A program made the position numbers and the translations under genes. The notes under the pieces were generated by a model. The model was not told where the DNA came from and made no database searches. It saw only the letters and a list, made by a program, of their open reading frames with translations. From assembly GCA_964359095.1 (NCBI GenBank), contig CAYHRJ010000002.1, positions 1 to 44,495 on the forward strand: DNA of 44,495 nucleotides. The letters run 5' to 3'. Below are positions 3,540 to 44,495 of the stretch, in pieces; position 1 is the first letter of the stretch; each line of letters starts with the position of its first letter. The stretch is from an uncultured Gammaproteobacteria bacterium. GTDB lineage: Bacteria > Patescibacteriota > Patescibacteriia > UBA9934 > GWF2-40-263.

Positions 3540-3658
3540 CGATTGGTTAAAGTTATCCACTGATTTTGATTGACAAGACCAAAAAAGTCTGGTGAAATAA
3601 TTCTAGACACATGAACTCCCCGACACGTGTTGACGGGGATTTTATTATTTTCAAACGT

Positions 3659-4174
3659 ATGCAATATCCAGAACCACTCGTGCCTTCAACGATCATTGAA
3701 GGAAAGATTTATTTTGTTCGTGGTAAAAAAGTGATGGTAGATCGAGACCTTGCTTTGTTGTATGGGGTTACCACAGCAGCATTGAATCAGGCGGTAAGGC
3801 GCAATCAAGAAAGGTTTCCAAACGATTTTATGTTCAAATTATCGCTGGTTGAAGCGAAGAACTTGATATCACAATTTGTGATATCAAGTTCACACGGAGG
3901 TTTTCGTAAGGAACCCATCGTCTTTACTGAGCTTGGAGTCGCCATGCTTTCAACTGTTCTTCGCAGTCCACGTGCTATTGCTGTAAACATTCAGATTATG
4001 AGAACCTTCACTCGTCTGAGGGAGATGCTGACAGAAAATGACGATCTTCGCCGTAAGGTTGAGGTGATGGAGAAACAATATGACGAGCAGTTCAAGATGG
4101 TATTTGATGCGATTCGAAGGATGTTGCTAGAGGATGAGCATGGCAAAATTGAGATTGGATTTCGCTCAAATTAG
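3659..4174 (+). CDS. ORF6N-domain (KilA-N-related) DNA-binding protein
   Basis: IYFVRGKKVMVDRDLALLYGV..LNQAVRRNQERFPNDFMFKLS..FTELGVAMLSTVLRSPRAIAVNIQIMRTF matches the ORF6N domain pattern; the ATG at 3659 is preferred over 3611. Confidence 0.7.
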   Translation: MQYPEPLVPSTIIEGKIYFVRGKKVMVDRDLALLYGVTTAALNQAVRRNQERFPNDFMFKLSLVEAKNLISQFVISSSHGGFRKEPIVFTELGVAMLSTVLRSPRAIAVNIQIMRTFTRLREMLTENDDLRRKVEVMEKQYDEQFKMVFDAIRRMLLEDEHGKIEIGFRSN

Positions 4175-4249: not shown

Positions 4250-5962
4250 ATGTTGAAGAAAACACTTATTTTCGCGGTTGCTCTTGCAATCGCCATCTCT
4301 CCTTTGCTTCCGAGGGTCTTTGCGGACTCCGGCGAGTGGGGAACCCCGGTCGCCACAGCGGCTTGGGATTACGACTACTTCCGCGTTGAGCGCTTGTCGC
4401 TTGATTCGGACACTTCTGGCCCCTACACATTTAACGACGTTGTCTTCGTTGTGAAGACCGCTGAGTCTTGCGACGAGACATCCTTGTGCGATCAAGTCGA
4501 CCTGACCATCTTCAAAGATGGCGAGTCGCTTGAGATTGCCTCTGTGTCAGATGTTGTCACGGACGCATTTTCTCAGACCGCACAAGATGGTCGGTTCATC
4601 TACATGGTCCCATCGGATTCCGATGACTCATGGGGAACCATTTACGAATACGACACGGACAGTGGCACCATCGCCACCTTGTTCGATGTGGCGCGTGGTG
4701 ACAACAGTCTTTCATTTCTGTCATTTGCCACTGACGGCGACCGCATCTATACGACAACCTTGCAGTCTGATGAAGACACAGGCGACGTAGAAAGCGCGCT
4801 CTCGGTCTACGACTACGGTTCAGGCTACGAGCGTGAAGATTTTACCTATGCGCTCTCTGCACCGCTTCAAGAGATTGTGGATGTGCAAGATGGGCAGGCA
4901 CTTGTGAAGGCCACGTTTGACGGCGGCTATGAGCAGTTGTGGATTGTGAATCAAACCGCGCGTTCCGTTGAAGCGATTCCTGATACTTGGACGGAACTTG
5001 GTGCTGACATTGTCGGCGCGCATTATCTCTCTGACGGATCCATTGTGTACTTCCGTAACTTCCGTTTGTGGAGCTACATGCAGGGCGTTGATGAAACGCC
5101 TGAGGATGCAGGTGGCGCCTACCTCTCTTGGTTGGTAGATGTTGAGGACGCTGTCCAGATTGTCGGTGACCGCATGGCCTACATCGATGACGAAAACGGT
5201 TTGTATGTTGTTGATCTTGAAGGCGTCCACAAGTTGGGTGTTGCCATGGGCGGCATCTTCAATCTTACTGATGACACCATCTACTTCCAAAATGATGAGG
5301 ACGAGTACGTTGGTTATAACTTTGAAACTCTTGCCTGGGAGTCTCGAGCCTTTCATGTGACGGATAGCTACGAGGATATCGTTGTGGGTGTCGACGAAGA
5401 CGGCAACGTCTGGTACGAGAATACCACCAATGGTCGTCTGTTGAACGTAGGATTCGGCGAAGCGCCACTTCTCTCAGATCGTGAGCACGCCTACTGGCAG
5501 GGAACAGATGGTAACGTCTATGAAGTCACGTTCTCTCCACTGTTGGATCTCGTGCGTGATGAAGTCGAAGCGTTTAGCGCCTACGACTCAGAAGGCATCT
5601 ATCTCGTAAGTGGTGACCAGATGTGGCTCATCCCAAGCGAGCAGGTGTACTTCACTTGGTTTGATTCCTGGGATGAAGTTGTCGAGGTAAGCCAAGCCAC
5701 GATCAACGTGTACTTGGAAACTTCTGACTACGAGGGCGATCTCAAGTTTGCTCCTGGCACGCGCGTGAAAGCCGTAAGTTCAGAGCGAGTCTACGTGGTA
5801 GGATCAGATTATGATCTCCACTGGATCACTTCCGAGACCGTCGCCGATGAAATCTATGGCTCCGACTGGAACCAAGGTATCATCGAGGTAAATGACACGG
5901 CTCTGTGGAAGTACGGCAAAGGCGCAAACGTTGCATCGGGCGACGATGTGCGATCAATCTAA
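4250..5962 (+). CDS. Secreted acidic protein with recurring DGxxIY blade-like motifs (possible beta-propeller)
   Basis: Signal-peptide-like N-terminus MLKKTLIFAVALAIAISPLLPRVFA; repeated DG(R/D/S)xIY and GxxYxV motifs reminiscent of TolB/PD40 blades; 570-aa uninterrupted ORF. Confidence 0.6.
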   Translation: MLKKTLIFAVALAIAISPLLPRVFADSGEWGTPVATAAWDYDYFRVERLSLDSDTSGPYTFNDVVFVVKTAESCDETSLCDQVDLTIFKDGESLEIASVSDVVTDAFSQTAQDGRFIYMVPSDSDDSWGTIYEYDTDSGTIATLFDVARGDNSLSFLSFATDGDRIYTTTLQSDEDTGDVESALSVYDYGSGYEREDFTYALSAPLQEIVDVQDGQALVKATFDGGYEQLWIVNQTARSVEAIPDTWTELGADIVGAHYLSDGSIVYFRNFRLWSYMQGVDETPEDAGGAYLSWLVDVEDAVQIVGDRMAYIDDENGLYVVDLEGVHKLGVAMGGIFNLTDDTIYFQNDEDEYVGYNFETLAWESRAFHVTDSYEDIVVGVDEDGNVWYENTTNGRLLNVGFGEAPLLSDREHAYWQGTDGNVYEVTFSPLLDLVRDEVEAFSAYDSEGIYLVSGDQMWLIPSEQVYFTWFDSWDEVVEVSQATINVYLETSDYEGDLKFAPGTRVKAVSSERVYVVGSDYDLHWITSETVADEIYGSDWNQGIIEVNDTALWKYGKGANVASGDDVRSI

Positions 5963-5992
5963 CATTCAAACACAGCCTCTGGAGTTTCGGTC

Positions 5993-6013
5993 CCCCTCCT
6001 TTTCAAGGAGGGG
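5993..6013 (+). terminator. GC-rich hairpin downstream of the secreted-protein gene (no U tract)
   Basis: The 8-bp stem cccctcct/aggagggg with 5-nt loop is nested inside an outer 9-bp inverted repeat ctctggagt (about 5976) / actccagag (about 6041). Confidence 0.3.
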
Positions 6014-6036
6014 ATAGGGGTGGTTATCACTCTTGA

Positions 6037-6070
6037 CCAAGACTCCAGAGATCCGTGTTGGACATCCTGT
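6037..6070 (+). repeat. Upstream cassette motif, copy 1 (core agagatccgtgttggacatcc)
   Basis: The 21-bp identical core (6047-6067) recurs exactly 840 bp downstream; it ends 34 nt before the ATG at 6101. Confidence 0.85.
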
Positions 6071-6100
6071 CCCCACGTTCGTTCCGCCTATGAGTCCGTC

Positions 6101-6376
6101 ATGCTCGCTCTTCTTCTCAGTCTGGCCTGTTCTCCTCCTCCGGCGGCGGAGATGGTCAGCGTCACCAACGGCGTCTCAAGCGCCGAGGTGATCGACTACG
6201 GCAACGGCGTCTACTACCTCGATGCCAGTGGCATGCAGTTCGGCAACGCCTTGTCGGAGTTCATCAAGCAGCACCGCCGCACCCTCGAGGTCGTGGCGGT
6301 CGCTGGCGACGGGAGTTCTCGCTACGGCGACGCCGGCTACTTCATCGTCACCCGTCCTGTCATCGACTGCAACTAG
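6101..6376 (+). CDS. Small lipoprotein (91 aa), unknown function
   Basis: ATG 6101 gives MLALLLSLAC with a lipobox-like LSLAC; strongly GC-rich third codon positions; the track ORF starts at an upstream GTG at 6020. Confidence 0.5.
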   Translation: MLALLLSLACSPPPAAEMVSVTNGVSSAEVIDYGNGVYYLDASGMQFGNALSEFIKQHRRTLEVVAVAGDGSSRYGDAGYFIVTRPVIDCN

Positions 6377-6384
6377 GAGGAATC

Positions 6385-6699
6385 ATGTCTCGCATCAACT
6401 TCAGGACGGTCGGCTACAAGGTCGGCAGGGTTGTGAGGACGAGTCTGATGACCGTGTTCCTGCTGATCTTCGTGTCCGTGAGCCTTTTCATGGGCGTAAC
6501 GGCTGTCTATCTCGTGGTAGCGGCCTTCCATTCCATCGTCGCGATGAAACTGGTGATGGCGTTGTACGCGGCCGTCGGCTTCTTCATGACGGCGACCACT
6601 TCATACCTTTATGGGCTCCTCGTTCATGGGTTTTGGCAGGATCTTCGTCGTCCCAACATCGCTCCATCCGTTCCCACGTTTCCGTCGCGCAGCGACTGA
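6385..6699 (+). CDS. Small polytopic membrane protein (104 aa), unknown function
   Basis: AGGAGG sits 6 nt upstream of the ATG; three hydrophobic segments. Confidence 0.55.
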   Translation: MSRINFRTVGYKVGRVVRTSLMTVFLLIFVSVSLFMGVTAVYLVVAAFHSIVAMKLVMALYAAVGFFMTATTSYLYGLLVHGFWQDLRRPNIAPSVPTFPSRSD

Positions 6700-6705
6700 C
6701 TCGCG

Positions 6706-6799
6706 GTCCACGACCGCACGGCACGGCGTTCGCGAACGACGTGTCACGCGACCCCCGTCCGTCCGCAGATACGACATCTGTGAGACGGACGGGGCGTCT
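6706..6799 (+). repeat. Downstream cassette repeat, copy 1 (12-bp palindrome plus 14-bp-stem hairpin)
   Basis: Contains the perfect palindrome cgttcgcgaacg and the stem gacccccgtccgtc/gacggacggggcgtc (one bulge); a near-identical copy lies at 7282-7370; it starts 7 nt after the stop. Confidence 0.85.
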
Positions 6800-6876
6800 C
6801 ACAACTTTTTCCCACGACTAGAAAGGTCACATATGTGACAAAGTGGTTCAATCCGGCTTCTGTCGTTTTGCCACGA

Positions 6877-6910
6877 GCAAGACCGTAGAGATCCGTGTTG
6901 GACATCCCGT
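6877..6910 (+). repeat. Upstream cassette motif, copy 2
   Basis: Same 21-bp core at 6887-6907, ending 32 nt before the ATG at 6939. Confidence 0.85.
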
Positions 6911-6938
6911 ATTTCACAGAGTCCCTTCAGGAGATTCC

Positions 6939-7274
6939 ATGTCTTCCTACGTCGATCGTTTCTTCCGCCTGTACTGGATGCTCGCATTCGGCGCAATGCT
7001 CGGCATCGGACTCTACATGATGAGTCTCCCCGATACGGTCATGGTGACCGGTGTACGAGAGATCCACGTCGTCAACAGCGCGGGCGTCAACAATCTCGAC
7101 CGCCACTTCAACTTCGATGACGGCTGCGTCCTCGAGGTTGGGGGCAGGATCGAGCAAGCGGCGTTCACCGGCGACGTCCGACTGATGATGTACACCCCGC
7201 CGCGGGACTCTGCTTCCGGCAACTTCTGTCCATCGGGCACTCACTTCGTCGCCTTCGCCGACATGTACTTCTGA
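6939..7274 (+). CDS. Small N-terminally anchored protein (111 aa), unknown function
   Basis: AGGAG sits 6 nt upstream of the ATG at 6939; one TM segment (YWMLAFGAMLGIGLYMM); GC-rich codons. Confidence 0.5.
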   Translation: MSSYVDRFFRLYWMLAFGAMLGIGLYMMSLPDTVMVTGVREIHVVNSAGVNNLDRHFNFDDGCVLEVGGRIEQAAFTGDVRLMMYTPPRDSASGNFCPSGTHFVAFADMYF

Positions 7275-7281
7275 CCGTCAC

Positions 7282-7370
7282 GGTCCACGGCACGGCGTTC
7301 GCGAACGACGTATCACGCGACCCCCGTACGTCCTTGCAGACACGACATCTGTGAGACGGACGGGGCGTCT
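7282..7370 (+). repeat. Downstream cassette repeat, copy 2
   Basis: Aligns to 6706-6799 with an 8-nt deletion near the 5' end and a small indel plus a few substitutions near the hairpin loop; it starts 8 nt after the stop at 7274. Confidence 0.85.
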
Positions 7371-7452
7371 ATTCATCTCTCCGTTGCCTTTCGACACCTG
7401 CGAGCCTGGCTCTCAGATGTGGGAAGATAACCTCTTTGCTGTAGGAGCGTTC

Positions 7453-8097
7453 ATGTTACAGTTACTCTTAATCGCTTGTAGCACTCTCGATCTGGAAGAT
7501 TCCACTGTCGAGGATATCGAAACGGACATCTGTTCGGATCTCGGCTTGGGCGTTCCAGACGACACTGACTGGGACGAGGGAGAGAGCACCATCGACGTGG
7601 ATTGGATGACGGAGGAGCGCGCATACATCCGAGTCACTGCTGAGTGCCTCGTGATCCCACCCTTTCATATCTACACCACACAAGAGGAGGAGTTGCCCAT
7701 CACCTTCCTTACCTTCTCCCTCGCGAGCTACGACAACGGGGAGTGGATCGAGAAGTTCGGTAGCGAACTCACGGTCGAAAGCACACTGGGCGACCTGGGC
7801 TCCTACGAGTCCGTCGGCACCGCTTGTGAGCCGTTCTGCGGCCCGCACTGGGAGATGGACCTCACGGAGTACGGCCTCGTGGTCAGTCCGAAGGAGGACT
7901 TCTACATTGAGTTCGAGATTCCGGGTTTCAACGATCCGTCGGAAATCGACGAAGTGTGGGATGACGAGCGCGACAAGCTCGCCATCATGGTCTACGCCGG
8001 ACACAGTTGGACCGAGGAGACTTCTCCAGGTCAGTACGAGTTCGGGATGTACGAGGCCGGATCACTTCTGACCATCGACGTCGAGGTCATCGAATAG
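7453..8097 (+). CDS. Acidic lipoprotein (214 aa), unknown function
   Basis: ATG 7453 gives MLQLLLIACS (lipobox LIAC) preceded by TAGGAG; very Asp/Glu-rich mature part; the track ORF starts at an upstream GTG at 7351. Confidence 0.55.
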   Translation: MLQLLLIACSTLDLEDSTVEDIETDICSDLGLGVPDDTDWDEGESTIDVDWMTEERAYIRVTAECLVIPPFHIYTTQEEELPITFLTFSLASYDNGEWIEKFGSELTVESTLGDLGSYESVGTACEPFCGPHWEMDLTEYGLVVSPKEDFYIEFEIPGFNDPSEIDEVWDDERDKLAIMVYAGHSWTEETSPGQYEFGMYEAGSLLTIDVEVIE

Positions 8098-36745: not shown

Positions 36746-36801
36746 ATTTTGAATTACGAACGATTTATACACAGGCACTTGTTTTTTCTCACAGCACTTA
36801 A

Positions 36802-36810
36802 TGTTATAAT
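36802..36810 (+). promoter_or_regulatory. Extended -10 promoter element TGtTATAAT
   Basis: Perfect TGnTATAAT at 36802-36810, 74 nt upstream of the ATG at 36884; no good -35. Confidence 0.4.
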
Positions 36811-36883
36811 TTTCTCGAACTTTTTTGATGGCATTGAGCGCCATCGATTTACTTTTACATTTAACCGCCCTAATTTTTTTCTT

Positions 36884-38635
36884 ATGAAGAAGATTGTCGT
36901 CCTCTTCCTCGGACTCTTGATGGGAATCGCGAACGTTGGTGTTTCACCGGCGCATGCTGGTACCACAGCCACGCTTTCGCTTTCTCCAACTAATACATCC
37001 GTGGAGACAGGGGACTCTTTTAGTTTAAGTGTGCTCGTCGACGCTAACGACGAATCGCTCGACACCGTGCGCGTCGATCTCAGTTTTGATCCAGATCTCG
37101 TCGAGATCACCTCGTTTGATCTTGGAAGCTTGTTTCCAAACTTGTCTCCATCGAACGACACAGACAACGATGCAGGGACTCTCAGCTACGGCGCGTACAA
37201 GTTCGGCACACCCGTGACGAGCTCTGGCACGCTTGCCACCGTTACGTTCCACGCTCTCTCAGAGGGGACAGCCACTATCGAAGTGGAAAGCACATCACGA
37301 TTGATTTCAGATGGTGAAGAAACCCTCGACACAGGTGACCTGGGTTCAGCCACGATTACTATTTCAGGTGAGGATGTTGCGTCTGAAGCGGTCGAAGAAG
37401 AAGAGGAAGAATCCGATGACTCAAGTAGTGGTGCAACCGAGAGTGACGAAGCAGCAGCTCTTGTCTACTTCGGTGCACTGTTTGGACGTCTTCCATCCAG
37501 TGATGACGATTGGGAAACCAATGACTGTATTGCTAATGATGGTTGCTATGACTCGGACAACCGCAATCTGACCTACGAAGTTGCTGCGCTTGCAAAGTTC
37601 AACAGCAAGTATGGAGCAAATCCATCCTCGTCCATGGACTGGCAGGCTGTACACGCTCTTGCCTATACCGCGGCTGGACAAGAATTGTTGGGTCTTGATG
37701 TGATTGCGGAAGCAGATGATGAGGAAGAGGTGGCGGAGGTGGATGAGGTAGAAGAGGTGGTTGAGGAAGAATCAGAAGCAAGTCTTGAGCAGCAAGCTCT
37801 CGTCTACTTTGGTGCGTTCTATGCCCGTATGCCTTCCTCAGATGACGACTGGTCGGCTCTGCACTGCATTGCCTACGGCGGATGCCAGGGAGATCCACGC
37901 GATGTCGCAGCTGAACAAGCAGCGCTCGTGATCTTCGGCGCCAAGTACGCAAAAATGCCTTCCACAGATATGGAATGGAACGTCATTCACACGCTTGCTT
38001 ACACAGACTTTTTAGATGAAGGCGATGAAGGAGAAGAGGTGGCGGAGGTGGAAGAGGTAGATGAGGTGGTTGAGGAAGAATCAGAAGCAAGTCTTGAGCA
38101 GCAAGCTCTCGTCTACTTCGGTGCGTTCTATGCTCGTATGCCTTCCTCAGATGATGACTGGTCCGCTCTGCACTGCATCGCTTACGGCGGATGCAAGGAA
38201 GATCCACAAGATGTCGCCGCAGAACAAGCCGCACTCGTGATATTCGGTGCCAAGTACGCAAAGATGCCATCGACCGACATGGAGTGGAACGTGATTCACA
38301 CACTTGCCTATACAGATTTCTTGGATGAGGGCGGCGAGGAAGAAGTTGTAGAAGAGGAGGTCGTTGAGGAAGAAGCGGCAGAAGAGACAGAGCTCACACT
38401 CGAGCAGCAGGCCATTGGCTGGTTTGGAACAATCACAGGACGCCTTCCATCTGAGGACGCTGACTGGGTCGCCATTGATTACATGGTGAACGGATACACC
38501 CCAAGCGAGGACGAGCGCGATCTAGAAGCAGAGTCCGCAGCCATCACGACGTACGTTGATGCATTCGGTGCTCTCCCAAGCTCTGATCAAGACTGGAATA
38601 TTGTTGCCGCGATTGCTTACTCAGGAGCCTTTTAA
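36884..38635 (+). CDS. Secreted cohesin-like domain protein carrying eight copies of an FG..P..DW repeat with poly-acidic linkers
   Basis: ATG at 36884 (MKKIVVLFLGLLMGIANVGVSPAHA signal peptide). The N-terminal module LSLSP..V..GDSFSLSVLVDANDESLDTVRVDLSFDPDLVEI is cohesin-like. It is followed by 4 pairs of 40-50-aa repeats. Confidence 0.6.
   Translation: MKKIVVLFLGLLMGIANVGVSPAHAGTTATLSLSPTNTSVETGDSFSLSVLVDANDESLDTVRVDLSFDPDLVEITSFDLGSLFPNLSPSNDTDNDAGTLSYGAYKFGTPVTSSGTLATVTFHALSEGTATIEVESTSRLISDGEETLDTGDLGSATITISGEDVASEAVEEEEEESDDSSSGATESDEAAALVYFGALFGRLPSSDDDWETNDCIANDGCYDSDNRNLTYEVAALAKFNSKYGANPSSSMDWQAVHALAYTAAGQELLGLDVIAEADDEEEVAEVDEVEEVVEEESEASLEQQALVYFGAFYARMPSSDDDWSALHCIAYGGCQGDPRDVAAEQAALVIFGAKYAKMPSTDMEWNVIHTLAYTDFLDEGDEGEEVAEVEEVDEVVEEESEASLEQQALVYFGAFYARMPSSDDDWSALHCIAYGGCKEDPQDVAAEQAALVIFGAKYAKMPSTDMEWNVIHTLAYTDFLDEGGEEEVVEEEVVEEEAAEETELTLEQQAIGWFGTITGRLPSEDADWVAIDYMVNGYTPSEDERDLEAESAAITTYVDAFGALPSSDQDWNIVAAIAYSGAF
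37715..38332 (+). repeat. Tandem duplication, 2 x 309 bp (103 aa), inside the cohesin-like gene
   Basis: gaagaggtggcggaggtgga.. at 37724 recurs at 38033. The two copies have the same length and differ mostly by synonymous changes plus a few replacements (QGDPRD vs KEDPQD and several acidic-linker residues). Confidence 0.85.
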
Positions 38636-38733: not shown

Positions 38734-39609
38734 ATGCCATATAAAAAATTACCAGTCCTGCTCGTGGCGCTGAGTCTCGTGGCACTTCCATGGAGTGCGG
38801 GCGCGACGGTGTCCTCCACGAGTTATCAGATCAATCCTGAGCAAGGGTTCCTCTCACCATCGGCAGACGGAGGCGCCAACGCTGACGGCATGCTGAACTC
38901 CACAACCTACCAGCTTCAAGGAGCGATTGAACCTTATGCTGGTCGCGTTTCCAGCACCTCATATCAGGAAGACGGCGGAGGAGCGTTCCAGTTCTATTGT
39001 GGTGATGGATTTCGAGATTCTTCTGAAACGTGTGACGGCGCAGATTTGAACAGCGCGACCTGTGCCAGCCAAGGATTTGATACAGGAACTCTCACCTGTA
39101 GCTCAGCCTGTGCCTATGTGACCACTGCTTGTTCAACAGCGTCAGGTGGCGGCGGAGGAGGTGGCGGCGGTGGAGGTGGCGGAAGTGCGCCAGATGAACC
39201 AGAGGTTTCAGACGAGATCGCAACACTTGAATACTCTTACTCCACATCGTTCCTGCTTTACGGAAGCATGGATAGCGACACAGATGCGATCACCGTGAAC
39301 GATTCAGAAGATGACGTAGAACTCGTCGATGACGAAACATGGAATGCCCTCGTGTCACTTTCCTACGGGTTGAACAGTTTCGCGATCGTTGCAAGTGATG
39401 GCTCTAACGACTCAGACGAAACCGTCTACGAACTCTACCGAAGACTCATTGGCGACATCACAGGAAACGACACCGTTGATGACTACGACCTTTCCAAGCT
39501 CGTCGGAATCTGGGGTGATGATGATCGTTCAGGAGACTTCAACGAGGATGACATCGTGGACGACTACGACTTCTCCATGATGGTCGCACGTTGGGGAACA
39601 AGCGTTTAG
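38734..39609 (+). CDS. Secreted Cys-rich protein with a poly-Gly linker and a C-terminal dockerin-like domain
   Basis: Signal peptide; three S-T-S-Y-Q motifs; a CGDG..ETCDG..TC..C..C..C cysteine-rich repeat; a 13-Gly run. The C-terminal duplicated Ca-binding segments are DITGNDTVDDYDLSKLVGIWG and DFNEDDIVDDYDFSMMVARWG. Confidence 0.65.
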   Translation: MPYKKLPVLLVALSLVALPWSAGATVSSTSYQINPEQGFLSPSADGGANADGMLNSTTYQLQGAIEPYAGRVSSTSYQEDGGGAFQFYCGDGFRDSSETCDGADLNSATCASQGFDTGTLTCSSACAYVTTACSTASGGGGGGGGGGGGGSAPDEPEVSDEIATLEYSYSTSFLLYGSMDSDTDAITVNDSEDDVELVDDETWNALVSLSYGLNSFAIVASDGSNDSDETVYELYRRLIGDITGNDTVDDYDLSKLVGIWGDDDRSGDFNEDDIVDDYDFSMMVARWGTSV

Positions 39610-39618
39610 ATATTTTAA

Positions 39619-39689
39619 AGGTAGCCGTAGCCTTTAGGCTGCGTCCGGCGCGATTGCGTTGAATGCGCAGGCTGAAGCCTGCGGCTACC
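39619..39689 (+). other. GC-rich long imperfect hairpin between the dockerin gene and the second cohesin-like gene
   Basis: 39620-39643 pairs with 39666-39689 (20 Watson-Crick pairs, 2 G-U pairs and 2 mismatches by hand), including the perfect 8-bp stem ggtagccg/cggctacc. Confidence 0.6.
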
Positions 39690-39718
39690 GATTATTCTGG
39701 AGGGATTTGCCGCATCTT

Positions 39719-40948
39719 ATGAAACAATTCCTTTCTGTTGTCGTGATCGGGATGATGCTCTTCTTGCCTGGTATCTCTCAGGCCGCCGGAGCCGCATCGA
39801 TGAGTCTGGACCAAGCAAGTTACTCGGTTGAACGTGGAGAACAATTCGACGTCACGGTGAGCGTAAACCCAAACGGGGAAGCACTCGACACGGTACGTGC
39901 GGTTGTCACGTTTGATCCAACGCGTGTGCAAGTACGAAACGTCTCTCTTGTCGGAGCGTTTGATCGTGTGGCGCCAGGCAACTATTGGGACAACGAAACA
40001 GGAAAAGTTTCATGGGGAGCTTTCACTCTTGAGGGTCCCGTGGCCGCTGAATCCTCATTTATCACCATCACCTTTCTTGGCCTTCAAGAGGGAAGTGGTG
40101 AGATCGAGATTTCAGGCGACTCACGAGCGATCGCAAATGGTGAAGAGAAGATCGACACAGGGAACCTCGGCGCTGCCGAGGTGAATGTGACCGCATCGAG
40201 CACAGCAGAAGCTGGGACAGCACTTATCGTCATTGAGAGTGCGACCCACACAAACGATGTTGACTGGTACGCGGTCAACGACGTGGAGTTCACCTGGACA
40301 GCCTTACAAGGAGATAATGACATCACGGCTTACTACTACTCATTCGATGAGACTTCTGACAGTGAGCCTGCGTCGTATCTCGCCGCGACAACGACAGAAC
40401 TGTCCTTCAGTGATGTCGGTGATGGCGTGCACTATCTCCGAATAAAGGGAGTGCAAGCAAATGGAAAGCAGACCAGCGTTGTAAGCCGACGAGTGAATAT
40501 CGATACCACTGCCCCGCACGAAATCGAGCTTCTGGTGCAGGACAACAAAATCCTAGAAGGCGAATCAGCCTGGTTCACCTTTGCCACACTCGATGATGTA
40601 TCAGGTGTGCTCCAGTACCAGATCGCGATTAACGATAGTGGCTATCAAGTCCAGGAAAGCCCACTGGAAATGAGCGATCTGCCTGTGGGAACGTACTTCT
40701 TTCGAGTGGCCGCGATTGATCGAGCAGGGAACGCTTCGTACGGAAGCACCTCAGTTCGCGTGTACCCAGAAGGAACGGACTTGAGTCGCCCAGATGGATA
40801 CGATGAGGACGCAGAGATGACTGCTATCACACAGTCGGTCAGTGACGAGACGAACAATACAAAGAAGCTGTTGATAACTTTCATCTTGGGAGTGATCATC
40901 ATTCTTGGTATAATTTCCGCGAAGAAAAAAAGAAAAATTAAATCATAG
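39719..40948 (+). CDS. Membrane-anchored cohesin-like surface protein with Ig/FN3-like middle region
   Basis: ATG at 39719 (MKQFLSVVVIGMMLFLPGISQAAG signal peptide). The module SLDQASYSVERGEQFDVTVSVNPNGEALDTVRAVVTFDPTRVQV is collinear with the 36884 protein. The C-terminal TM helix LLITFILGVIIILGIISA is followed by KKKRKIKS. Confidence 0.6.
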   Translation: MKQFLSVVVIGMMLFLPGISQAAGAASMSLDQASYSVERGEQFDVTVSVNPNGEALDTVRAVVTFDPTRVQVRNVSLVGAFDRVAPGNYWDNETGKVSWGAFTLEGPVAAESSFITITFLGLQEGSGEIEISGDSRAIANGEEKIDTGNLGAAEVNVTASSTAEAGTALIVIESATHTNDVDWYAVNDVEFTWTALQGDNDITAYYYSFDETSDSEPASYLAATTTELSFSDVGDGVHYLRIKGVQANGKQTSVVSRRVNIDTTAPHEIELLVQDNKILEGESAWFTFATLDDVSGVLQYQIAINDSGYQVQESPLEMSDLPVGTYFFRVAAIDRAGNASYGSTSVRVYPEGTDLSRPDGYDEDAEMTAITQSVSDETNNTKKLLITFILGVIIILGIISAKKKRKIKS

Positions 40949-41118
40949 CATCCACATGGACTCAGGGATAGGCTCAGTGATTTGGTGGCGACGCGACAAT
41001 GCATAACTCTTGCATTGCGTTTCTGCATTTGAGAAACCGTGTGGTTTCGTCTCCAGAATCACTAAACAATTTTTGACCCATTTCATAAATTAAGTGCTTT
41101 TCTAAGCGCGACAAAAGT

Positions 41119-44100
41119 ATGCGAACCGCCAAACTCATACTGCACTCGATTGTCATGATCTCGATGGTGTTCTCCACCCTCGCGATCGCCCTCGTTGCAG
41201 CAACGTCCACTGCCCAAGCGCAGGTCCCGACATCGATCGGGTACAACGGACGCCTCTTTAATGCATCAGGTACAGCCCTCACGGGTACGTATTTTTTCTG
41301 GGTTGACCTGGAGAATACACTCACAGGCGGCACCGTCGTTACGGGAAACATCCAGGCACTGAACTTTCTTGCGACGCCTACCGCGTCGATTACCGTGACC
41401 AACGGTTTCTTCTCAGTGCAGATTCCACTGGGAGCAAGTCTTTCTGATTTTTCGGATAACCTTTTTCTCGAGTTGAAGGTGCACACGGCTGACGTGGTTG
41501 GAAGTGCTGAGACACTCTCTCCTCGCGTGGAGATCACCAAGACGCCTTACTCTATTTTCACCCAAGCGATTGAAGCAGCCGCAACAGCACCAACCGATGA
41601 CACATTTGACGGTCGCTTGTTCTACGATACAGCTGCTGACAAGATTCGATTTTACGATGGTGACACATGGAATTTTGTCGAAGGCATCACAGACACAGCA
41701 ACTCTCACTTTGGACAACGCAGCAGCCACAGCCGTGAATATCGGTGCTGGCGCGGTTGCGAAGACCGTTACGATCGGTAACGGCACAGGCGCAACATCTG
41801 TCGTGTTGAACGCTGGTACTGGTGCCTTGAACATTGGTACCAACGCCATTGCTCACACCGTAACGCTCGGTAACACAACAGGTGCAACAGCTGTTCAAGT
41901 AAACACCGGATCCGGTGGATTTGGCGTTGACGGTCCTGAATTTGATATCACCCCTGGCACAGGAGCCATCACGATTAACGATAGCGCCGATGCTGGTGCG
42001 CTGTTGGTTGAAGGATCCAATTTCGATATTAACTCCCTCGACTTCGTGGGAACTGGTGCTATTACCTCAGCAGCCACAACGGCACTGAGTCTCACCTCCG
42101 GTACAACCGGAGCAGTGTCAGTCGACTCAGGATCAACCGGCGCGGTGAACCTGGGAACTGGCGCAGCAGCAAAAACCATCACTCTCGGTAACGCAGCTTC
42201 CACAGAAGCCGAGGTGAACGCACTTCTCGTCGACATCAATGGCGGTACTGGCGGTGTCCTCATTGACGGCGGAGCAGCGTCAAACTTTACAACTTCCGTA
42301 GGAGCCCTCACGCTCTCAACGACTGCTGGCGGCACGTCCTCGAGTGTGATTTTGCGCTCAGTCGATACTTCTTCGGATGCGATTTTCTTGGATGCAGATG
42401 GAGCTGCTGGTGCGGGTATTACACTGGATGCATACGACGCCACATCCAACACGACGGGAGCCATCTTGATGGAGGGCGCTTATGTTCAGATTGATACCTT
42501 CAATTCCAATGGATTAAACTCTTCCGGATTTGATGTAAACGTTGGAGATTCCGGAACAATTTCATTGACTACTACCTCTGGAGCGGTCTCCTTAACCGCT
42601 GGTGGAGGTTCCAACGTTACACTTACAAGTGCTTCTGGAGGAGTCAGCTTTGACACACAAACCGCCGATCAAACGATCAGAGTTGGTACATCAAACGTTG
42701 ATAGAAACATTAACATTGGTACAACAACAGGTGCTGATACCATAACACTTGGAGATGCAACAGGTGCTGACACATTTAATTTTTTGAGTGGCGTAAGCAC
42801 AAGTGGCGATGTCGTCGATGTCACCTTTGCATCTTTGACTACAAACGACGCCTTTGACATCGATACAGCCGCGATCACAACCGGAGATGTATTTGACATC
42901 ACCTCAGGTACGGTTCGAACAAGTGGATCAGCCCTTCATATCACAGATGATTCTCTTGCCGCCGCGGTTACTGGGGATTTGATTCAGATTGATGTCGCAG
43001 GGTCAAAAGACACCAACACACTGGACATTGACGTATCCCATGCAACTCTCGTTGCTACAGGCAACGAACTTGACATCACCTACTCTGGCGCCGCTCACAC
43101 TGGCAACGCTGTGGACCTCAACATGGGAACCAACGTGGCTGGAGATGCGATCAATATCACCACGGCTACTACGAGCGGTCAGGCAATTCAGGTTGATGCT
43201 TCAGCAGCGCTCACAGCCGATCTGATTACGATTGCTTCGCTGCTTACGGGTGATACCGTTGGTGTTGATGCACTTTCAATTACCATGACAGCGAGCGATC
43301 AGACAAATCGAGTAAATGCATTGATAAATGGAACTATGACTGCGGCTGGAACAGCTGCCGGAGACATCGTAATCGGTTTGCTTCTTGATCACGCTGGGAC
43401 AACTGCGGGTACAGATGCCGCGATTGATATTGAGGGAACAACAGCTTGGGACGCAGATTTGAACCTTCAGAATGACCTGACGATGACTAATAGTGATGAC
43501 AATGACCTAACTCTTACAGAAAACTCTCTCTCTTTGAATCTTGATTTCGGTGAAGCGACAGCGAGCACCATCGAGGGATCTACGGCAAGCTCGCTCACGT
43601 TAACGTCCAGCAATGCCGCAGCCGACGCTCTACTCCTGCGTGCAACAGGTGGCACCTTAGCAACCGCTCACTTGACCTCAAACGGAACAGGAACCGCCTC
43701 TGTGGATATTGATGCCACAGGTGTAGGTGGAGACATCGACATTGATTCCGCTGATGCCATCACCATCGATGCCACGACATCCTTCTCCATTGACGGAACG
43801 GGTACTTCCTCAAACCTCACCCTGACTTCCAATGGCGCAGCTGACGATCTCACCATTGCTCTTGCAGGCGTCTTCAACTCCTCACTCATCCTCTCTTCCG
43901 CTGGTACTGATGCAGATGCCATGCAGATTACAACCACCGCTGGTGGTATGGATATCTCCGTCACAGGTGATCTCGCTGGTGAAGACTTGGACATCACAAC
44001 CGTTGGTGCAACAACAGAGATGCGACTCACGTCAGCCTCTACAACCGCTGACTCTATCGCCATCCAGGCAGTAACAACCACCGCTGGAATTGACATTGAC

Positions 44101-44495
44101 TCAGGCACAGGTGGTATCGACATCCTCTCAGGTGGAGTCTTCTCCATCGACGGAGTCTCTGCTTCAAACCTCTCTGTCACCTCTAACCTTGCTGCGGAAG
44201 ATCTCACCATCTCTCAGATTGGCGCAGTCAATGCCAGCCTGATTCTCTCTGCTGCTGGTACAGCCGAGGACGCCATGCAGATCACCACAACGGCTGGCGG
44301 TCTCAACATCTCCGTCACAGGTGATCTCGCTGGTGAAGACTTGGACATCACAGCTATTGGTACAGCAACCGAGATTCGTGTGACTGGAGCTTCCACAGAA
44401 GCCGACGCCATCATCGTGGACGCCACAGCTGGAGGAGTCATCATCGACTCTGGCTTAGCTGCAGCTGACTCGCTCTTGCTTCGTGCAACAGGTGG
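41119..44495 (+). CDS. Giant secreted Thr/Ala/Gly/Asp-rich repeat protein (adhesin or fibre-like), 3' end beyond the window
   Basis: Hand translation of all 1125 codons from ATG 41119 shows no stop. There is a signal peptide (MRTAKLILHSIVMISMVFSTLAIALVAATSTAQA), then low-complexity T/A/G/D repeats. It is missing from the ORF track because no stop lies in the window. All long minus-strand ORFs here are antisense shadows. Confidence 0.8.
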   Translation, partial: MRTAKLILHSIVMISMVFSTLAIALVAATSTAQAQVPTSIGYNGRLFNASGTALTGTYFFWVDLENTLTGGTVVTGNIQALNFLATPTASITVTNGFFSVQIPLGASLSDFSDNLFLELKVHTADVVGSAETLSPRVEITKTPYSIFTQAIEAAATAPTDDTFDGRLFYDTAADKIRFYDGDTWNFVEGITDTATLTLDNAAATAVNIGAGAVAKTVTIGNGTGATSVVLNAGTGALNIGTNAIAHTVTLGNTTGATAVQVNTGSGGFGVDGPEFDITPGTGAITINDSADAGALLVEGSNFDINSLDFVGTGAITSAATTALSLTSGTTGAVSVDSGSTGAVNLGTGAAAKTITLGNAASTEAEVNALLVDINGGTGGVLIDGGAASNFTTSVGALTLSTTAGGTSSSVILRSVDTSSDAIFLDADGAAGAGITLDAYDATSNTTGAILMEGAYVQIDTFNSNGLNSSGFDVNVGDSGTISLTTTSGAVSLTAGGGSNVTLTSASGGVSFDTQTADQTIRVGTSNVDRNINIGTTTGADTITLGDATGADTFNFLSGVSTSGDVVDVTFASLTTNDAFDIDTAAITTGDVFDITSGTVRTSGSALHITDDSLAAAVTGDLIQIDVAGSKDTNTLDIDVSHATLVATGNELDITYSGAAHTGNAVDLNMGTNVAGDAINITTATTSGQAIQVDASAALTADLITIASLLTGDTVGVDALSITMTASDQTNRVNALINGTMTAAGTAAGDIVIGLLLDHAGTTAGTDAAIDIEGTTAWDADLNLQNDLTMTNSDDNDLTLTENSLSLNLDFGEATASTIEGSTASSLTLTSSNAAADALLLRATGGTLATAHLTSNGTGTASVDIDATGVGGDIDIDSADAITIDATTSFSIDGTGTSSNLTLTSNGAADDLTIALAGVFNSSLILSSAGTDADAMQITTTAGGMDISVTGDLAGEDLDITTVGATTEMRLTSASTTADSIAIQAVTTTAGIDIDSGTGGIDILSGGVFSIDGVSASNLSVTSNLAAEDLTISQIGAVNASLILSAAGTAEDAMQITTTAGGLNISVTGDLAGEDLDITAIGTATEIRVTGASTEADAIIVDATAGGVIIDSGLAAADSLLLRATG
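43783..44495 (+). repeat. Tandem coding repeats of about 354-357 bp, within a higher-order repeat of about 843 bp
   Basis: atgcagat..tccgtcacaggtgatctcgctggtgaagacttggacatcaca at 43921 recurs at 44275 (a 42-nt identical stretch). The ALLLRATGG-coding segment at about 43621 recurs at about 44464. Confidence 0.75.

What the first reader, a model, noticed from the sequence alone, without database searches (positions are those of the whole stretch)
41119..44495. Giant open-ended adhesin-like ORF that the six-frame track does not list
Seen in sequence: frame 1 from ATG 41119 stays open for all 1125 codons to the window edge. I translated every 60-nt line by hand and found no stop. The product starts with a signal peptide. 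An N-terminal segment follows (IGYNGRLFNASGTALTGTYFFWVDL..., DGRLFYDTAADKIRFYDGDTWNF) that recalls the heads of tail-fibre-like or collagen-triple-helix-adjacent surface proteins. The rest is T/A/G/D/S/I/L low-complexity sequence with units such as TLGN..GA and DIDSA.AITIDA, typical of beta-helical or fibrous adhesins. Repeats of 354-357 bp, and a higher-order 843-bp repeat that restarts at the window end, show the gene continues well beyond 44495. Seven minus-strand ORFs of 62-189 aa in the track are antisense artefacts of this composition.
Basis: seen in the sequence. Interest (0 to 1): 0.7.

Follow-up and report, generated by a model that had tools for sequence, protein, structure and literature searches.

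The report
Truncated tail-fibre-like surface protein gene
This is the first 1125 codons of a real gene for a large secreted fibre protein of an uncultured Patescibacteria (Uhrbacteria-like) bacterium. It resembles phage tail fibres and probably helps the cell stick to a partner, but it is one more member of a large, unnamed family rather than something new in kind.

Summary
Frame +1 from ATG 41119 is open for 1125 codons to the window edge, whereas shuffled sequence gives a longest open stretch of about 104 codons. The ORF list omits it only because it does not list ORFs that run off the window. Comparison with a syntenic ortholog (P0001, 1419 aa, 69% identity) shows mostly third-position changes, so this frame is under selection. 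The product has a conserved Sec signal peptide, a confident N-terminal beta-sandwich domain, and about 930 aa of acidic, Cys-free T/A/G/S/D-rich repeats of 31 aa and 118 aa. Relatives are hypothetical proteins of Uhrbacteria and other Patescibacteria (1149 clusters). Twelve complete ones are 1419-2785 aa. All twelve end in a C-terminal module whose model matches phage tail-fibre and tailspike tips and H-type lectins. The 31-aa repeat also occurs in metagenomic phage-like proteins. The gene lies in a conserved chromosomal cassette with cohesin-domain proteins, not in a prophage. The best reading is a cell-surface, probably trimeric, tail-fibre-like adhesin. The beta-helix fold, trimer state and adhesin role remain inferred. 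The autotransporter reading is rejected. Novelty: a new member of a known kind. Interest is modest.

The parts
41119..44495 (+). 5' part (1125 codons) of a large surface-fibre gene. The stop codon lies beyond the window.
   Evidence: There are no stops in frame 1. Differences from ortholog P0001/L001 fall 255/157/550 on codon positions 1/2/3 over 1070 aligned codons. A full search of the representative protein library found 1149 homologous clusters.
41119..41223 (+). Sec-type signal peptide (aa 1-35): MRTAK, a 22-aa hydrophobic core, and A-Q-A followed by Q.
   Evidence: Read directly from the sequence. The basic n-region, hydrophobic core and A-x-A motif followed by Q are conserved in most of the 13 relatives examined (two of them, P0243 and P0262, lack the basic n-region). 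No other hydrophobic 19-mer occurs in the ORF. Cleavage was not tested.
41224..41703 (+). Conserved N-terminal beta-sandwich domain (aa 36-195). It includes the hairpin motif DGRLFYDTAADKIRFYDGDTWNF.
   Evidence: This is the only confident part of the AlphaFold2 model, with pLDDT of about 70-88 in most 10-residue blocks. It is 93% identical to P0001, with 9/4/57 differences at codon positions 1/2/3. It is found in 34 retrieved relatives. It has no Pfam hit, and the Foldseek matches against PDB are only non-significant Ig-like ones.
41704..42798 (+). Gly/Thr/Ala-rich shaft region (aa 196-560). It carries copies of the 31-aa unit NIGxGAxAKTxTxGNxTGATxxxxNxGTGA at about aa 207, 238, 344 and 531.
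   Evidence: Direct repeats D2 and D3 and protein self-diagonals define the unit. The unit is shared at 45-76% identity with many 650-800 aa proteins, some with K1-lyase_C or Peptidase_S74 ends. One of these proteins lies on a phage-like contig.
42799..43608 (+). Asp/Thr-rich shaft region (aa 561-830) with short irregular units of the type xDxDxxxxTTGDxFDIT.
   Evidence: Composition and self-diagonals. It is 80% identical to P0001. The model has low confidence here.
43609..44495 (+). Distal repeat region (aa 831-1125). It holds two copies of a 118-aa unit (354 nt) and the start of a further unit 281 aa (843 nt) downstream of its first occurrence.
   Evidence: It is only 42% identical to P0001, with indels. 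Partial relatives P0124, P0125 and P0246 start inside the same units. The model shows regular 4-6 residue strands every 11-12 residues at pLDDT 51-57.
39659..40948 (+). Conserved upstream neighbour (context only). It is a secreted protein with a cohesin domain, an OmpL47/PKD-like domain, and a C-terminal membrane helix with a KKKRKIKS tail. The probable start is ATG 39719.
   Evidence: Pfam Cohesin E=4.5e-5, at the cut-off. NCBIfam OmpL47-type barrel E=4.2e-7. Translation. Conserved in L001 and L003. The link to the fibre rests on synteny only.
38734..39609 (+). Conserved upstream neighbour (context only). It is a secreted 291-aa protein with a poly-Gly tract and a C-terminal dockerin-like duplicated segment.
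   Evidence: Translation. The C-terminal 52 aa are almost identical in L001 and closely conserved in L003. Pfam Dockerin_1 scores only E=0.022, below the cut-off.
36749..38635 (+). Conserved upstream neighbour (context only). It is a secreted cohesin-domain protein with four to five acidic-linker-separated repeats. The probable start is ATG 36884.
   Evidence: Pfam Cohesin E=1.4e-9. Translation. A 481-aa gene holds the same position in L003.

Best explanation
The ORF is the N-terminal two-thirds or less of a Sec-exported, cell-surface fibre protein of an Uhrbacteria-like member of the Patescibacteria (candidate phyla radiation).

Proposed mechanism, with each step marked as shown or inferred:
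1. The signal peptide directs export. The motif is shown; cleavage is inferred.
2. The highly conserved N-terminal beta-sandwich domain sits next to the cell and holds the fibre on a conserved surface partner. This is inferred. The membrane-anchored cohesin protein encoded two genes upstream is a candidate partner.
3. The roughly 930 aa or more of acidic, Cys-free T/A/G/S/D-rich repeats form an extended beta-rich shaft, probably an intertwined trimer as in phage tail fibres. Repeat number varies between relatives and would set the length. The repeats and their variation are shown. The fold and the oligomeric state are inferred.
4. Beyond the window the protein most likely ends in the family's C-terminal module. 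That module has an invariant D-x-A-E segment resembling the phi29 gp12 (Peptidase_G2) self-cleaving assembly chaperone, then a domain like phage decoration proteins, then an H-type-lectin-like beta-sandwich like those at tailspike and pyocin-fibre tips, then an acidic/proline-rich tail. This is shown for close relatives and inferred for this gene.
5. The tip binds a surface glycan of a partner or host cell, so the fibre acts as an attachment and recognition device. This is inferred.

Overall, it is a cellular counterpart of a phage receptor-binding fibre.
For: Coding status: the frame is open, substitutions concentrate at third codon positions, and there are 1149 homologous clusters.

Host lineage: the named relatives are all Candidatus Uhrbacteria or Patescibacteria hypothetical proteins.

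Export: the signal peptide is conserved.

Domain map: the N-terminal domain is confident and the shaft is low-confidence in the monomer model. This pattern is what one would expect, from general experience, when an intertwined trimer is modelled as a single chain.

Kinship with phage fibres: the 31-aa repeat is shared with proteins ending in K1-lyase_C or Peptidase_S74, and with a 793-aa protein on a 40-kb phage-like contig. Relatives P0023 and P0112 combine this N-terminal domain with a Peptidase_S74 end.

C-terminal module: all 12 complete proteins that carry the N-terminal domain end in the same module. H_lectin matches 6 of 7 members, best E=4.7e-5. The AlphaFold2 model of P0125 has two domains with pLDDT of 85 or more. 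It matches Pam1 tailspike, R2 pyocin fibre, Sf6 tailspike and Helix pomatia agglutinin at E 4e-3 to 4e-2. It also has 47 viral matches at E<=1e-3, best 1.6e-9, including a preneck appendage protein and tail fibre proteins. Peptidase_G2 matches 5 of 21 diverse members, best E=1.1e-7.

Chromosomal setting, not a prophage: the window also holds uvrA, a pseudouridine synthase, a PolyA_pol-family nucleotidyltransferase (probably the CCA-adding enzyme) and a glycan cluster. The cassette is syntenic in L001, L003 and L004.

Precedent: Bdellovibrio MAT fibres have a conserved N-terminal domain, a trimeric beta-helix fibre and swappable S74 or lectin tips (PMC10769870). Proteins longer than 1,500 aa in cultured Patescibacteria epibionts preferentially carry signal peptides or transmembrane domains (16 of 31) and often adhesion domains (PMC13059738).
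Against: No fold assignment exists for about 80% of the window's protein: pLDDT is 35-68, and there are no Pfam, PHROG, NCBIfam or PDB sequence hits.

The trimer state could not be modelled.

The C-terminal module lies outside the window. Its PDB fold matches are marginal (E>=1.5e-3).

The Peptidase_G2 link is transitive. It is absent from close relatives, and the phi29 gp12 alignment has E=0.21.

If the module is cleaved at D-x-A-E as in gp12, the lectin-like domain would be released rather than displayed.

No anchoring motif was found in the fibre: no SLH, LPXTG, dockerin or second membrane helix.

There are no expression or localisation data.

No GenBank phage record matches the shaft.
Confidence: 0.6

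Rival explanations
1. It is a structural envelope protein (an S-layer or sheath subunit) rather than an adhesin. It would be an abundant, O-glycosylated Thr/Ser-rich surface protein decorated by the neighbouring glycan-synthesis cluster.
For: The composition is acidic, Cys-free and rich in T/A/S/G, which is typical of S-layer proteins (general knowledge). A 22-kb cluster lies directly upstream of the cassette. It encodes a Bac_transf initiating transferase, two Wzy_C/O-antigen-ligase-like proteins, glycosyltransferases, TylF-type methyltransferases, a carbamoyltransferase and a flippase-like protein. This resembles the S-layer glycosylation clusters that lie next to S-layer genes in Geobacillus and Paenibacillus (general knowledge).
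Against: The adjacency is not conserved. In L003 and L004 the cassette follows PolyA_pol directly, with no glycan cluster. No SLH or other S-layer anchoring domain was found. The family's modular tips (S74, K1-lyase_C, lectin-like) and variable repeat number fit fibres better than lattice-forming subunits.
Confidence: 0.15
2. It is a surface-displayed, tailspike-like enzyme. The shaft would be a beta-helix with glycan-depolymerase activity that degrades a partner's capsule or cell wall, rather than a passive adhesin.
For: Relative P0004 has a Phage_depo_C hit, E=7.4e-6. Other relatives end in K1-lyase_C. The C-terminal module matches Sf6, Pam1 and Klebsiella K1-lyase tailspikes.
Against: All these matches are to C-terminal beta-sandwich domains, not to catalytic beta-helices. 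No pectate-lyase or glycosidase family hit was found anywhere in the window ORF, even at E<=10. No catalytic residues could be identified.
Confidence: 0.12
3. It is a prophage or tailocin tail-fibre gene, and not a cellular surface protein.
For: The 31-aa repeat and the C-terminal module are shared with phage-type proteins.
Against: A conserved signal peptide is present. No phage structural, integrase or lysis genes occur in the 44-kb window. The gene lies in a conserved chromosomal cassette next to housekeeping genes in three independent contigs. There are no PHROG hits.
Confidence: 0.04
4. It is the passenger of an autotransporter or trimeric autotransporter adhesin.
For: Automated source names for two distant hits call them 'trimeric autotransporter adhesin' and 'fibronectin-binding autotransporter adhesin'. 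The composition is repeat-rich.
Against: Complete relatives end in the lectin-like module and an acidic tail. They have no beta-barrel translocator or YadA anchor in Pfam at E<=0.1. Patescibacteria are not known to possess an outer membrane (general knowledge).
Confidence: 0.02
5. It is not a functional gene: either a chance open frame or pseudogene, or the minus-strand ORFs are the real genes.
For: No expression data exist. No clear Shine-Dalgarno sequence lies upstream. The antisense frames hold open stretches of up to 217 codons.
Against: There are 0 stops in 1125 codons here and 0 in 1419 codons in the ortholog, against 19-104 stops in the antisense frames. Third-position changes dominate, and there are 350 synonymous codon changes. 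Hundreds of homologs exist.
Confidence: 0.01

Closest known systems
Unnamed family of Patescibacteria (Uhrbacteria) 'hypothetical proteins', e.g. P0001 (WC654_03325, 1419 aa), P0003 + P0125 (HZA87_05665 / HZA87_03990), P0006 (1909 aa)
   Same: The signal peptide, N-terminal domain (84-93% identity for P0001 and P0003, about 62% for P0006), shaft repeats and gene neighbourhood are the same.
   Different: The number and order of the distal 118-aa units differ (42% identity with indels). The window copy is incomplete. In the window a 22-kb glycan cluster is inserted upstream of the cassette.
Bdellovibrio bacteriovorus mosaic adhesive trimer (MAT) fibres (Caulton et al. 2024, PMC10769870)
   Same: Both are cell-encoded, surface-displayed, phage-tail-fibre-like proteins. 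Both have an invariant N-terminal domain, a long repetitive fibre, and family members that end either in a Peptidase_S74 chaperone or in lectin-type tips. In both cases the bacterium lives on other bacteria (for MAT; here).
   Different: No sequence similarity to solved MAT tips was detected. The N-terminal domain, repeat units and C-terminal module (G2-like plus H-lectin-like) differ. The trimeric state and surface location are not shown here. The host lineage is Patescibacteria, not Bdellovibrionota.
Phage tail fibres and tailspikes with C-terminal assembly chaperones (phi29 gp12 preneck appendage / Peptidase_G2; endosialidase-type Peptidase_S74; K1-lyase_C)
   Same: The 31-aa shaft repeat is shared with S74- and K1-lyase_C-ended proteins. 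The D-x-A-E segment and the following residues resemble the start of the released gp12 chaperone. The tip beta-sandwich resembles those of the Pam1 and Sf6 tailspikes and the R2 pyocin fibre. There are 47 viral structure matches.
   Different: This protein has a signal peptide, lies in a chromosomal non-phage locus, and has no PHROG hit and no match in GenBank phages for the shaft. The G2 similarity is weak for close relatives.
Very large surface-targeted proteins of cultured or enriched Patescibacteria epibionts (Absconditicoccaceae; PMC13059738)
   Same: They are long (>1,500 aa) proteins, about half of which carry a signal peptide or transmembrane domain, proposed to mediate host recognition.
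   Different: Those proteins carry recognisable adhesion domains (FN3, Ca-stabilised adhesin repeats, ConA, integrin). This one has no Pfam domain at all in the window.

Membership tests
Uhrbacteria/Patescibacteria N-domain fibre family (unnamed; P0001-like) | Signal peptide followed by the conserved N-terminal beta-sandwich domain of about 160 aa | tested here: met
   93% identity to P0001 and 84% to P0003 over aa 36-195. The signal peptide is conserved.
Uhrbacteria/Patescibacteria N-domain fibre family (unnamed; P0001-like) | T/A/G/D-rich shaft with the 31-aa and 118-aa units | tested here: met
Uhrbacteria/Patescibacteria N-domain fibre family (unnamed; P0001-like) | C-terminal D-x-A-E / GRVPVKV / H-lectin-like module of about 300 aa | not testable with these tools
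   The module lies beyond the window edge. It is present in all 12 complete relatives. Exact-match scans could not extend the contig.
Uhrbacteria/Patescibacteria N-domain fibre family (unnamed; P0001-like) | Conserved cassette: cohesin protein, dockerin-like protein, membrane-anchored cohesin protein, then the fibre | tested here: met
   The order is the same in the window, L001, L003 and L004.
Phage tail fibre / tailspike | Encoded in a phage or prophage structural module | tested here: not met
   No phage genes occur in the window, and the chromosomal synteny is conserved.
Phage tail fibre / tailspike | C-terminal intramolecular chaperone (Peptidase_S74 or Peptidase_G2) | tested here: inconclusive
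   This region is not in the window. Close relatives have no Pfam hit. Peptidase_G2 matches 5 of 21 diverse members. The alignment to phi29 gp12 has E=0.21.
Phage tail fibre / tailspike | Homotrimeric beta-helical or triple-beta-helix shaft | not testable with these tools
   Only monomer prediction was available. The shaft has pLDDT 35-68.
Bdellovibrio MAT superfamily | Sequence or structural homology to the MAT N-terminal domain and fibre | tested here: not met
   There are no PDB sequence hits with the protein or with the family profile. Foldseek on the window model gave only non-significant Ig-like matches. The MAT N-terminal domain itself is not in the PDB.
Bdellovibrio MAT superfamily | Mosaic architecture: an invariant N-terminal domain with swappable S74 or non-S74 tips | tested here: met
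   This was tested at family level only. The N-terminal domain occurs with the G2/lectin-like module (12 proteins) or with a Peptidase_S74 end (P0023, P0112).
Autotransporter / trimeric autotransporter adhesin | C-terminal outer-membrane beta-barrel translocator or YadA anchor | tested here: not met
   Complete relatives P0001, P0004 and P0006 show no such Pfam domain at E<=0.1.
S-layer protein | Cell-wall anchoring domain (SLH or equivalent) and lattice formation | tested here: not met
   No SLH or other anchoring domain appears in Pfam or NCBIfam. Lattice formation is not testable.
Cellulosome-type dockerin-bearing protein | Dockerin module in the fibre itself | tested here: not met
   There is no Dockerin hit in the window ORF tiles at E<=10 or in complete relatives. 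The dockerin-like segment is in the neighbouring 291-aa protein.

The most novel reading that the evidence does not exclude
The conserved four-gene cassette may encode a previously undescribed host-recognition apparatus of Uhrbacteria. In this reading a Sec-exported, phage-derived trimeric fibre has a self-processing (gp12/G2-like) assembly module and an H-type-lectin tip. It is mounted on the cell through a membrane-anchored cohesin-dockerin scaffold. Its repeat number and tip are exchanged with phages of the same community. This would be a Patescibacteria counterpart of the Bdellovibrio MAT fibres, and the first proposed molecular handle on how uncultured Parcubacteria-group cells select partners.
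Probability: 0.15. Interest if true: 0.7.

Novelty: new member of a known kind. Interest (0 to 1): 0.35.

Why it matters
Patescibacteria make up a large share of bacterial diversity. The cultured ones live attached to other microbes, and apart from type IV pili little is known about how they recognise and hold their partners. This gene belongs to a widespread family (over 1000 clusters) that remains unnamed and has no Pfam model. Its architecture points to receptor-binding fibres borrowed from, or shared with, phages. It lies next to a conserved cohesin/dockerin-like set of genes. The family would therefore be a reasonable target for structural work and binding studies. As a single genome feature, however, it is one more truncated copy of a 'hypothetical protein' type already common in metagenome-assembled genomes. 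Its practical lesson is that these genes routinely break short-read assemblies in their repeat region.

Tried and rejected
- Pfam, PHROGs and NCBIfam searches on the full ORF and on four tiles, down to E<=10, gave nothing usable.
- PDB sequence searches with the protein, with the family profile A1 and with profile A3 gave no hits. Profile A2 gave one chance-level hit. Profile A4 gave only weak hits, including Aureispira GhpA at E=0.032, which I judge not significant.
- The AlphaFold2 monomer model of the 1125 aa had mean pLDDT 52.8. Only the N-terminal domain is usable, and Foldseek against PDB gave only non-significant Ig-like matches.
- I tried to extend the contig by exact-match scans of the last 62 nt. 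There were no matches in genome contigs or metagenome contigs.
- The search for related loci failed with alignment A1 because it has no conserved stretch. With the single protein it returned only a distant Sedimentisphaerales locus.
- The word-indexed homolog search with the N-terminal domain alone returned just two fragments and was uninformative.
- tblastn of the shaft against GenBank phages found no match. The C-terminal module gave one weak hit, at E=8e-4, to a hypothetical protein of a Pseudomonas jumbo phage.
- Looking up P0126 as a possible missing half of the gene failed because it is not on record.
- A collagen-like reading is rejected: there are no G-x-y runs.
- Tandem Repeats Finder does not detect the repeats.

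Full report
**1. Observation**

Frame 1 from ATG 41119 translates without a stop for 1125 codons to the last base of the window. The other five frames of the same span contain 19-81 stops. In 500 shuffles of the sequence the longest open stretch in frame 1 averaged 104 codons, with a maximum of 256.

ATG 41119 is the first start codon after an in-frame stop at 41086-41088. It follows a 170-nt intergenic spacer.

The ORF is missing from the ORF list because that tool, by its own rule, omits ORFs that run off the source.

- A pair spaced 354 nt apart (43805-44058 and 44159-44412) at 72% identity.
- A 38-nt match at 79% identity between 43615 and 44458, which are 843 nt apart.
- 93-nt units near 41737, 41830 and 42712.

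At protein level the strongest self-diagonals are at offsets of 118, 31 and 281 aa. The 843-nt 'restart' rests on about a dozen residues, because the window ends there. I count eight rather than seven minus-strand ORFs of at least 60 aa over the gene.

**2. It is a gene under selection**

The closest complete relative, P0001 (1419 aa), is 69% identical over 95% of the query. It lies in a syntenic contig, L001.

Over 1070 aligned codons the two genes differ at 255, 157 and 550 sites in codon positions 1, 2 and 3. There are 350 synonymous codon changes. In the N-terminal domain the counts are 9, 4 and 57.

The ortholog's frame is also open for all 1419 codons, while its antisense frames carry 32-104 stops. 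The antisense ORFs are therefore by-products of the composition.

**3. Anatomy of the window product**

- **Signal peptide.** Residues 1-35 form a Sec-type signal: MRTAK, a 22-residue hydrophobic core, and A-Q-A followed by Q. Most of the 13 relatives examined keep the same layout, with A-x-A followed by Q.
- **N-terminal domain.** Residues 36-195 are the only part that AlphaFold2 models with confidence (pLDDT of about 70-88 in most 10-residue blocks). The fold is a beta-sandwich. It has no significant PDB fold match and no Pfam hit.
- **Shaft.** The remaining 930 residues are 16% Thr, 14% Ala, 12% Gly, 9% Ser and 9% Asp. They have no Cys, and 11% acidic against 1.8% basic residues. They hold 31-aa units (NIGxGAxAKTxTxGNxTGAT...) at about aa 207, 238, 344 and 531, short D/T-rich units in aa 561-830, and two 118-aa units in aa 896-1125.
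- **Model quality for the shaft.** pLDDT is 35-68. Strands recur regularly every 11-12 residues in the distal part.
- **Negative results.** The window ORF and its four tiles have no significant hit in Pfam, PHROGs or NCBIfam, and the ORF and the family profile A1 have no PDB sequence hit at all. There are no collagen-like runs and no second hydrophobic segment.

**4. Relatives and what lies beyond the window**

The word-indexed search found 219 relatives. The named ones are hypothetical proteins of Candidatus Uhrbacteria or the Patescibacteria group. The exhaustive search of 1.84 billion representatives found 1149 clusters at E<=1e-3 and 55 at E<=1e-30.

Twelve retrieved proteins carry both the N-terminal domain and a common C-terminal module. 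They are 1419-2785 aa long.

Several partial proteins begin inside the same 118-aa units as the window's tail and run on to that module:
- P0125 comes from the same assembly as the N-terminal fragment P0003.
- P0124 is another such fragment.
- P0246 is 1138 aa and 75% identical to the window's tail.

Two conclusions follow. First, this gene repeatedly breaks assemblies in its repeat region, which is probably why the window ends here. Second, the complete protein is probably about 1,600-2,800 aa. That is large, but not giant by current standards.

Exact-match scans with the last 62 nt found no longer copy of the contig.

**5. The C-terminal module (in relatives, not in the window)**

H_lectin matches 6 of 7 close members, best E=4.7e-5. 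Gp53-like_C matches 5 of 7.

An AlphaFold2 model of P0125, built on 44 sequences, has two confident domains: aa 160-310 with pLDDT above 90, and aa 340-430 with pLDDT 85-97.

Against the PDB:
- The first domain resembles phage capsid decoration proteins (Borrelia phage BB1, the phi29 gp8.5 base, TW1).
- The second resembles the C-terminal beta-sandwiches of the Pam1 and Sf6 tailspikes and the R2 pyocin fibre, and Helix pomatia agglutinin.
- All these matches have E between 1.5e-3 and 4e-2, with probability about 1.

Against predicted viral structures there are 47 matches at E<=1e-3, best 1.6e-9. They include a preneck appendage protein and several tail fibre proteins.

The module starts with an invariant D-x-A-E motif. 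Diverse members reach Pfam Peptidase_G2, the self-cleaving assembly chaperone of the phi29 gp12 family, at or above its cut-off.

In a non-significant alignment (E=0.21) of one such member, the A-E of its D-x-A-E motif aligns with residues 3-4 of the released gp12 chaperone chain 3gqh. That chain is 163 residues long, which fits residues 692-854 of gp12. This numbering is my inference from the chain length and from recall of Xiang et al. 2009.

The link is suggestive and transitive. It is not established for the close relatives.

**6. Kinship with phage fibres**

The 31-aa unit is shared at 45-76% identity with many 650-800 aa proteins on 35-45 kb contigs. One such contig, L002, carries HNH endonucleases, a YqaJ-type exonuclease and a sigma-factor fragment, and looks like a phage genome.

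Some of these proteins end in K1-lyase_C or Peptidase_S74. P0013's C-terminus hits the PHROG for the 'long tail fiber protein distal subunit'.

Two long relatives, P0023 and P0112, combine the window's type of N-terminal domain with a Peptidase_S74 end. The family is therefore mosaic: one N-terminal domain, variable shafts and alternative tips.

No GenBank phage record matches the shaft.

**7. Genomic setting**

The window is chromosomal. It holds uvrA, a pseudouridine synthase and a PolyA_pol-family nucleotidyltransferase, probably the CCA-adding enzyme. It also holds a 22-kb glycan-synthesis cluster.

Directly upstream of the fibre gene are three secreted proteins:
- A cohesin-domain protein with acidic-linker repeats.
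- A 291-aa protein whose highly conserved C-terminus looks like a duplicated dockerin segment. Pfam gives only E=0.022.
- A cohesin plus OmpL47/PKD-like protein with a C-terminal membrane helix.

The same order recurs in L001, L003 and L004. It is followed there by a protein of about 150 aa and a TPR protein of about 820 aa. In L003 the cassette directly follows the PolyA_pol gene, so the glycan cluster is an insertion specific to the window's lineage.

There are no phage genes nearby.

**8. Interpretation**

The best-supported reading is a Sec-exported, cell-surface fibre built like a phage receptor-binding protein. It would have:
- a conserved cell-proximal N-terminal domain;
- a long repeat shaft, probably trimeric, whose length varies between strains;
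- beyond the window, an assembly and tip module with a lectin-like domain.

The protein would serve attachment or recognition of partner cells.

The closest functional analogue is the mosaic adhesive trimer family of Bdellovibrio (PMC10769870). That family shares the architecture, but I detected no sequence homology to it. Very large surface-targeted proteins are already recognised as a feature of Patescibacteria epibionts (PMC13059738).

Shown here:
- the gene is real and under selection;
- the signal-peptide motif is conserved;
- the domain map;
- family membership and synteny;
- repeats shared with phage-type proteins;
- the fold similarities of the relatives' C-terminal module.

Inferred:
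- the trimeric beta-helical shaft;
- surface retention, and by what means;
- presence of the C-terminal module in this copy;
- self-cleavage;
- glycan binding and a role in partner attachment.

**9. Rivals**

- An S-layer-type structural protein glycosylated by the adjacent cluster is possible (0.15). It is weakened by the non-conserved adjacency and the absence of anchoring domains.
- A surface depolymerase is possible (0.12). No catalytic family was detected.
- A prophage fibre (0.04), an autotransporter passenger (0.02) and a non-gene (0.01) are each contradicted by tested features.

**10. Verdict**

It is right about a real, secreted, fibre-type, tail-fibre-related gene that continues beyond the window. 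The beta-helix fold and the adhesin role remain unproven, and the autotransporter idea is wrong.

The gene is a new member of a known kind: a widespread but unnamed family of Patescibacteria surface fibres. Interest is 0.35. The most novel reading still open is a cohesin-dockerin-mounted, phage-derived host-recognition fibre system. I give it a probability of about 0.15, and it would merit about 0.7 if true.

Noticed in passing
window 38734-39609 (+), with 36749-38635 (+) and 39659-40948 (+): A conserved trio of secreted proteins lies upstream of the fibre gene. Two carry cohesin domains, and one of these has a C-terminal membrane helix. The third, 291 aa, ends in two 22-aa segments (GDITGNDTVDDYDLSKLVGIWG and GDFNEDDIVDDYDFSMMVARWG) that look like a dockerin. 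This segment is almost identical in L001 and closely conserved in L003. It may be a non-cellulosomal cohesin-dockerin surface system in a Patescibacteria genome. Pfam Dockerin_1 gives only E=0.022.
   Followed up: partly
window 36749-38635 (+), aa ~230-628: The 628-aa cohesin protein contains four to five copies of a roughly 60-75 aa unit (…ALVYFGAFYARMPSSDDDWSALHCIAYGGC…AALVIFGAKYAKMPSTDMEWNVIHTLAYTD) separated by poly-Glu/Val linkers. No family hit was found for the unit.
   Followed up: no
window ~14800-36600: A 22-kb glycan-synthesis cluster lies between the PolyA_pol gene and the cassette. It encodes GT1, GT2 and GT4 transferases, a carbamoyltransferase, a TylF-type and a class-I SAM methyltransferase, a GDSL hydrolase, an epimerase/dehydratase, a Polysacc_synt flippase-like protein, two 680-aa Wzy_C proteins (one with TPR repeats) and a Bac_transf initiating transferase. 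It is absent at this position in L003 and L004. GC content drops to 37% at 21-23 kb against about 50% elsewhere, which suggests acquired DNA.
   Followed up: partly
locus L002 10001-12382 (P0029) and similar 35-45 kb contigs: Metagenomic phage-like contigs carrying HNH endonucleases, a YqaJ exonuclease and a sigma70 region-4 protein encode 650-800 aa proteins that share the fibre's 31-aa repeat. They may be tail fibres of phages infecting Patescibacteria or their partners. No PHROG hit was found for P0029.
   Followed up: partly
window 3611-4174 (+) and 4250-8097: An ORF6N-domain protein (a phage antirepressor-type domain, E=1e-31) lies just after uvrA. It is followed by ORFs with no Pfam hit (570, 199 and 248 aa among those scanned) in a stretch where GC rises to 58% at 6-8 kb. 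This may be a small mobile or foreign insert.
   Followed up: no
profile A4 (C-terminal module, domain 1) vs PDB 9flp: The GRVPVKV…GD.LT.SS segment gives a weak, repeated match (E=0.032) to the 5898-aa grappling-hook protein GhpA of the predatory bacterium Aureispira. This is probably chance, but GhpA is another contact-dependent surface fibre.
   Followed up: no
relatives' C-termini (P0001, P0004, P0006, P0016, P0021, P0243 etc.): All complete family members end in a low-complexity acidic or proline-rich tail (PEPT or (V/E)EE repeats) of 30-150 aa, with no membrane anchor. Similar poly-Glu/Val linkers occur in the neighbouring 628-aa cohesin protein.
   Followed up: no
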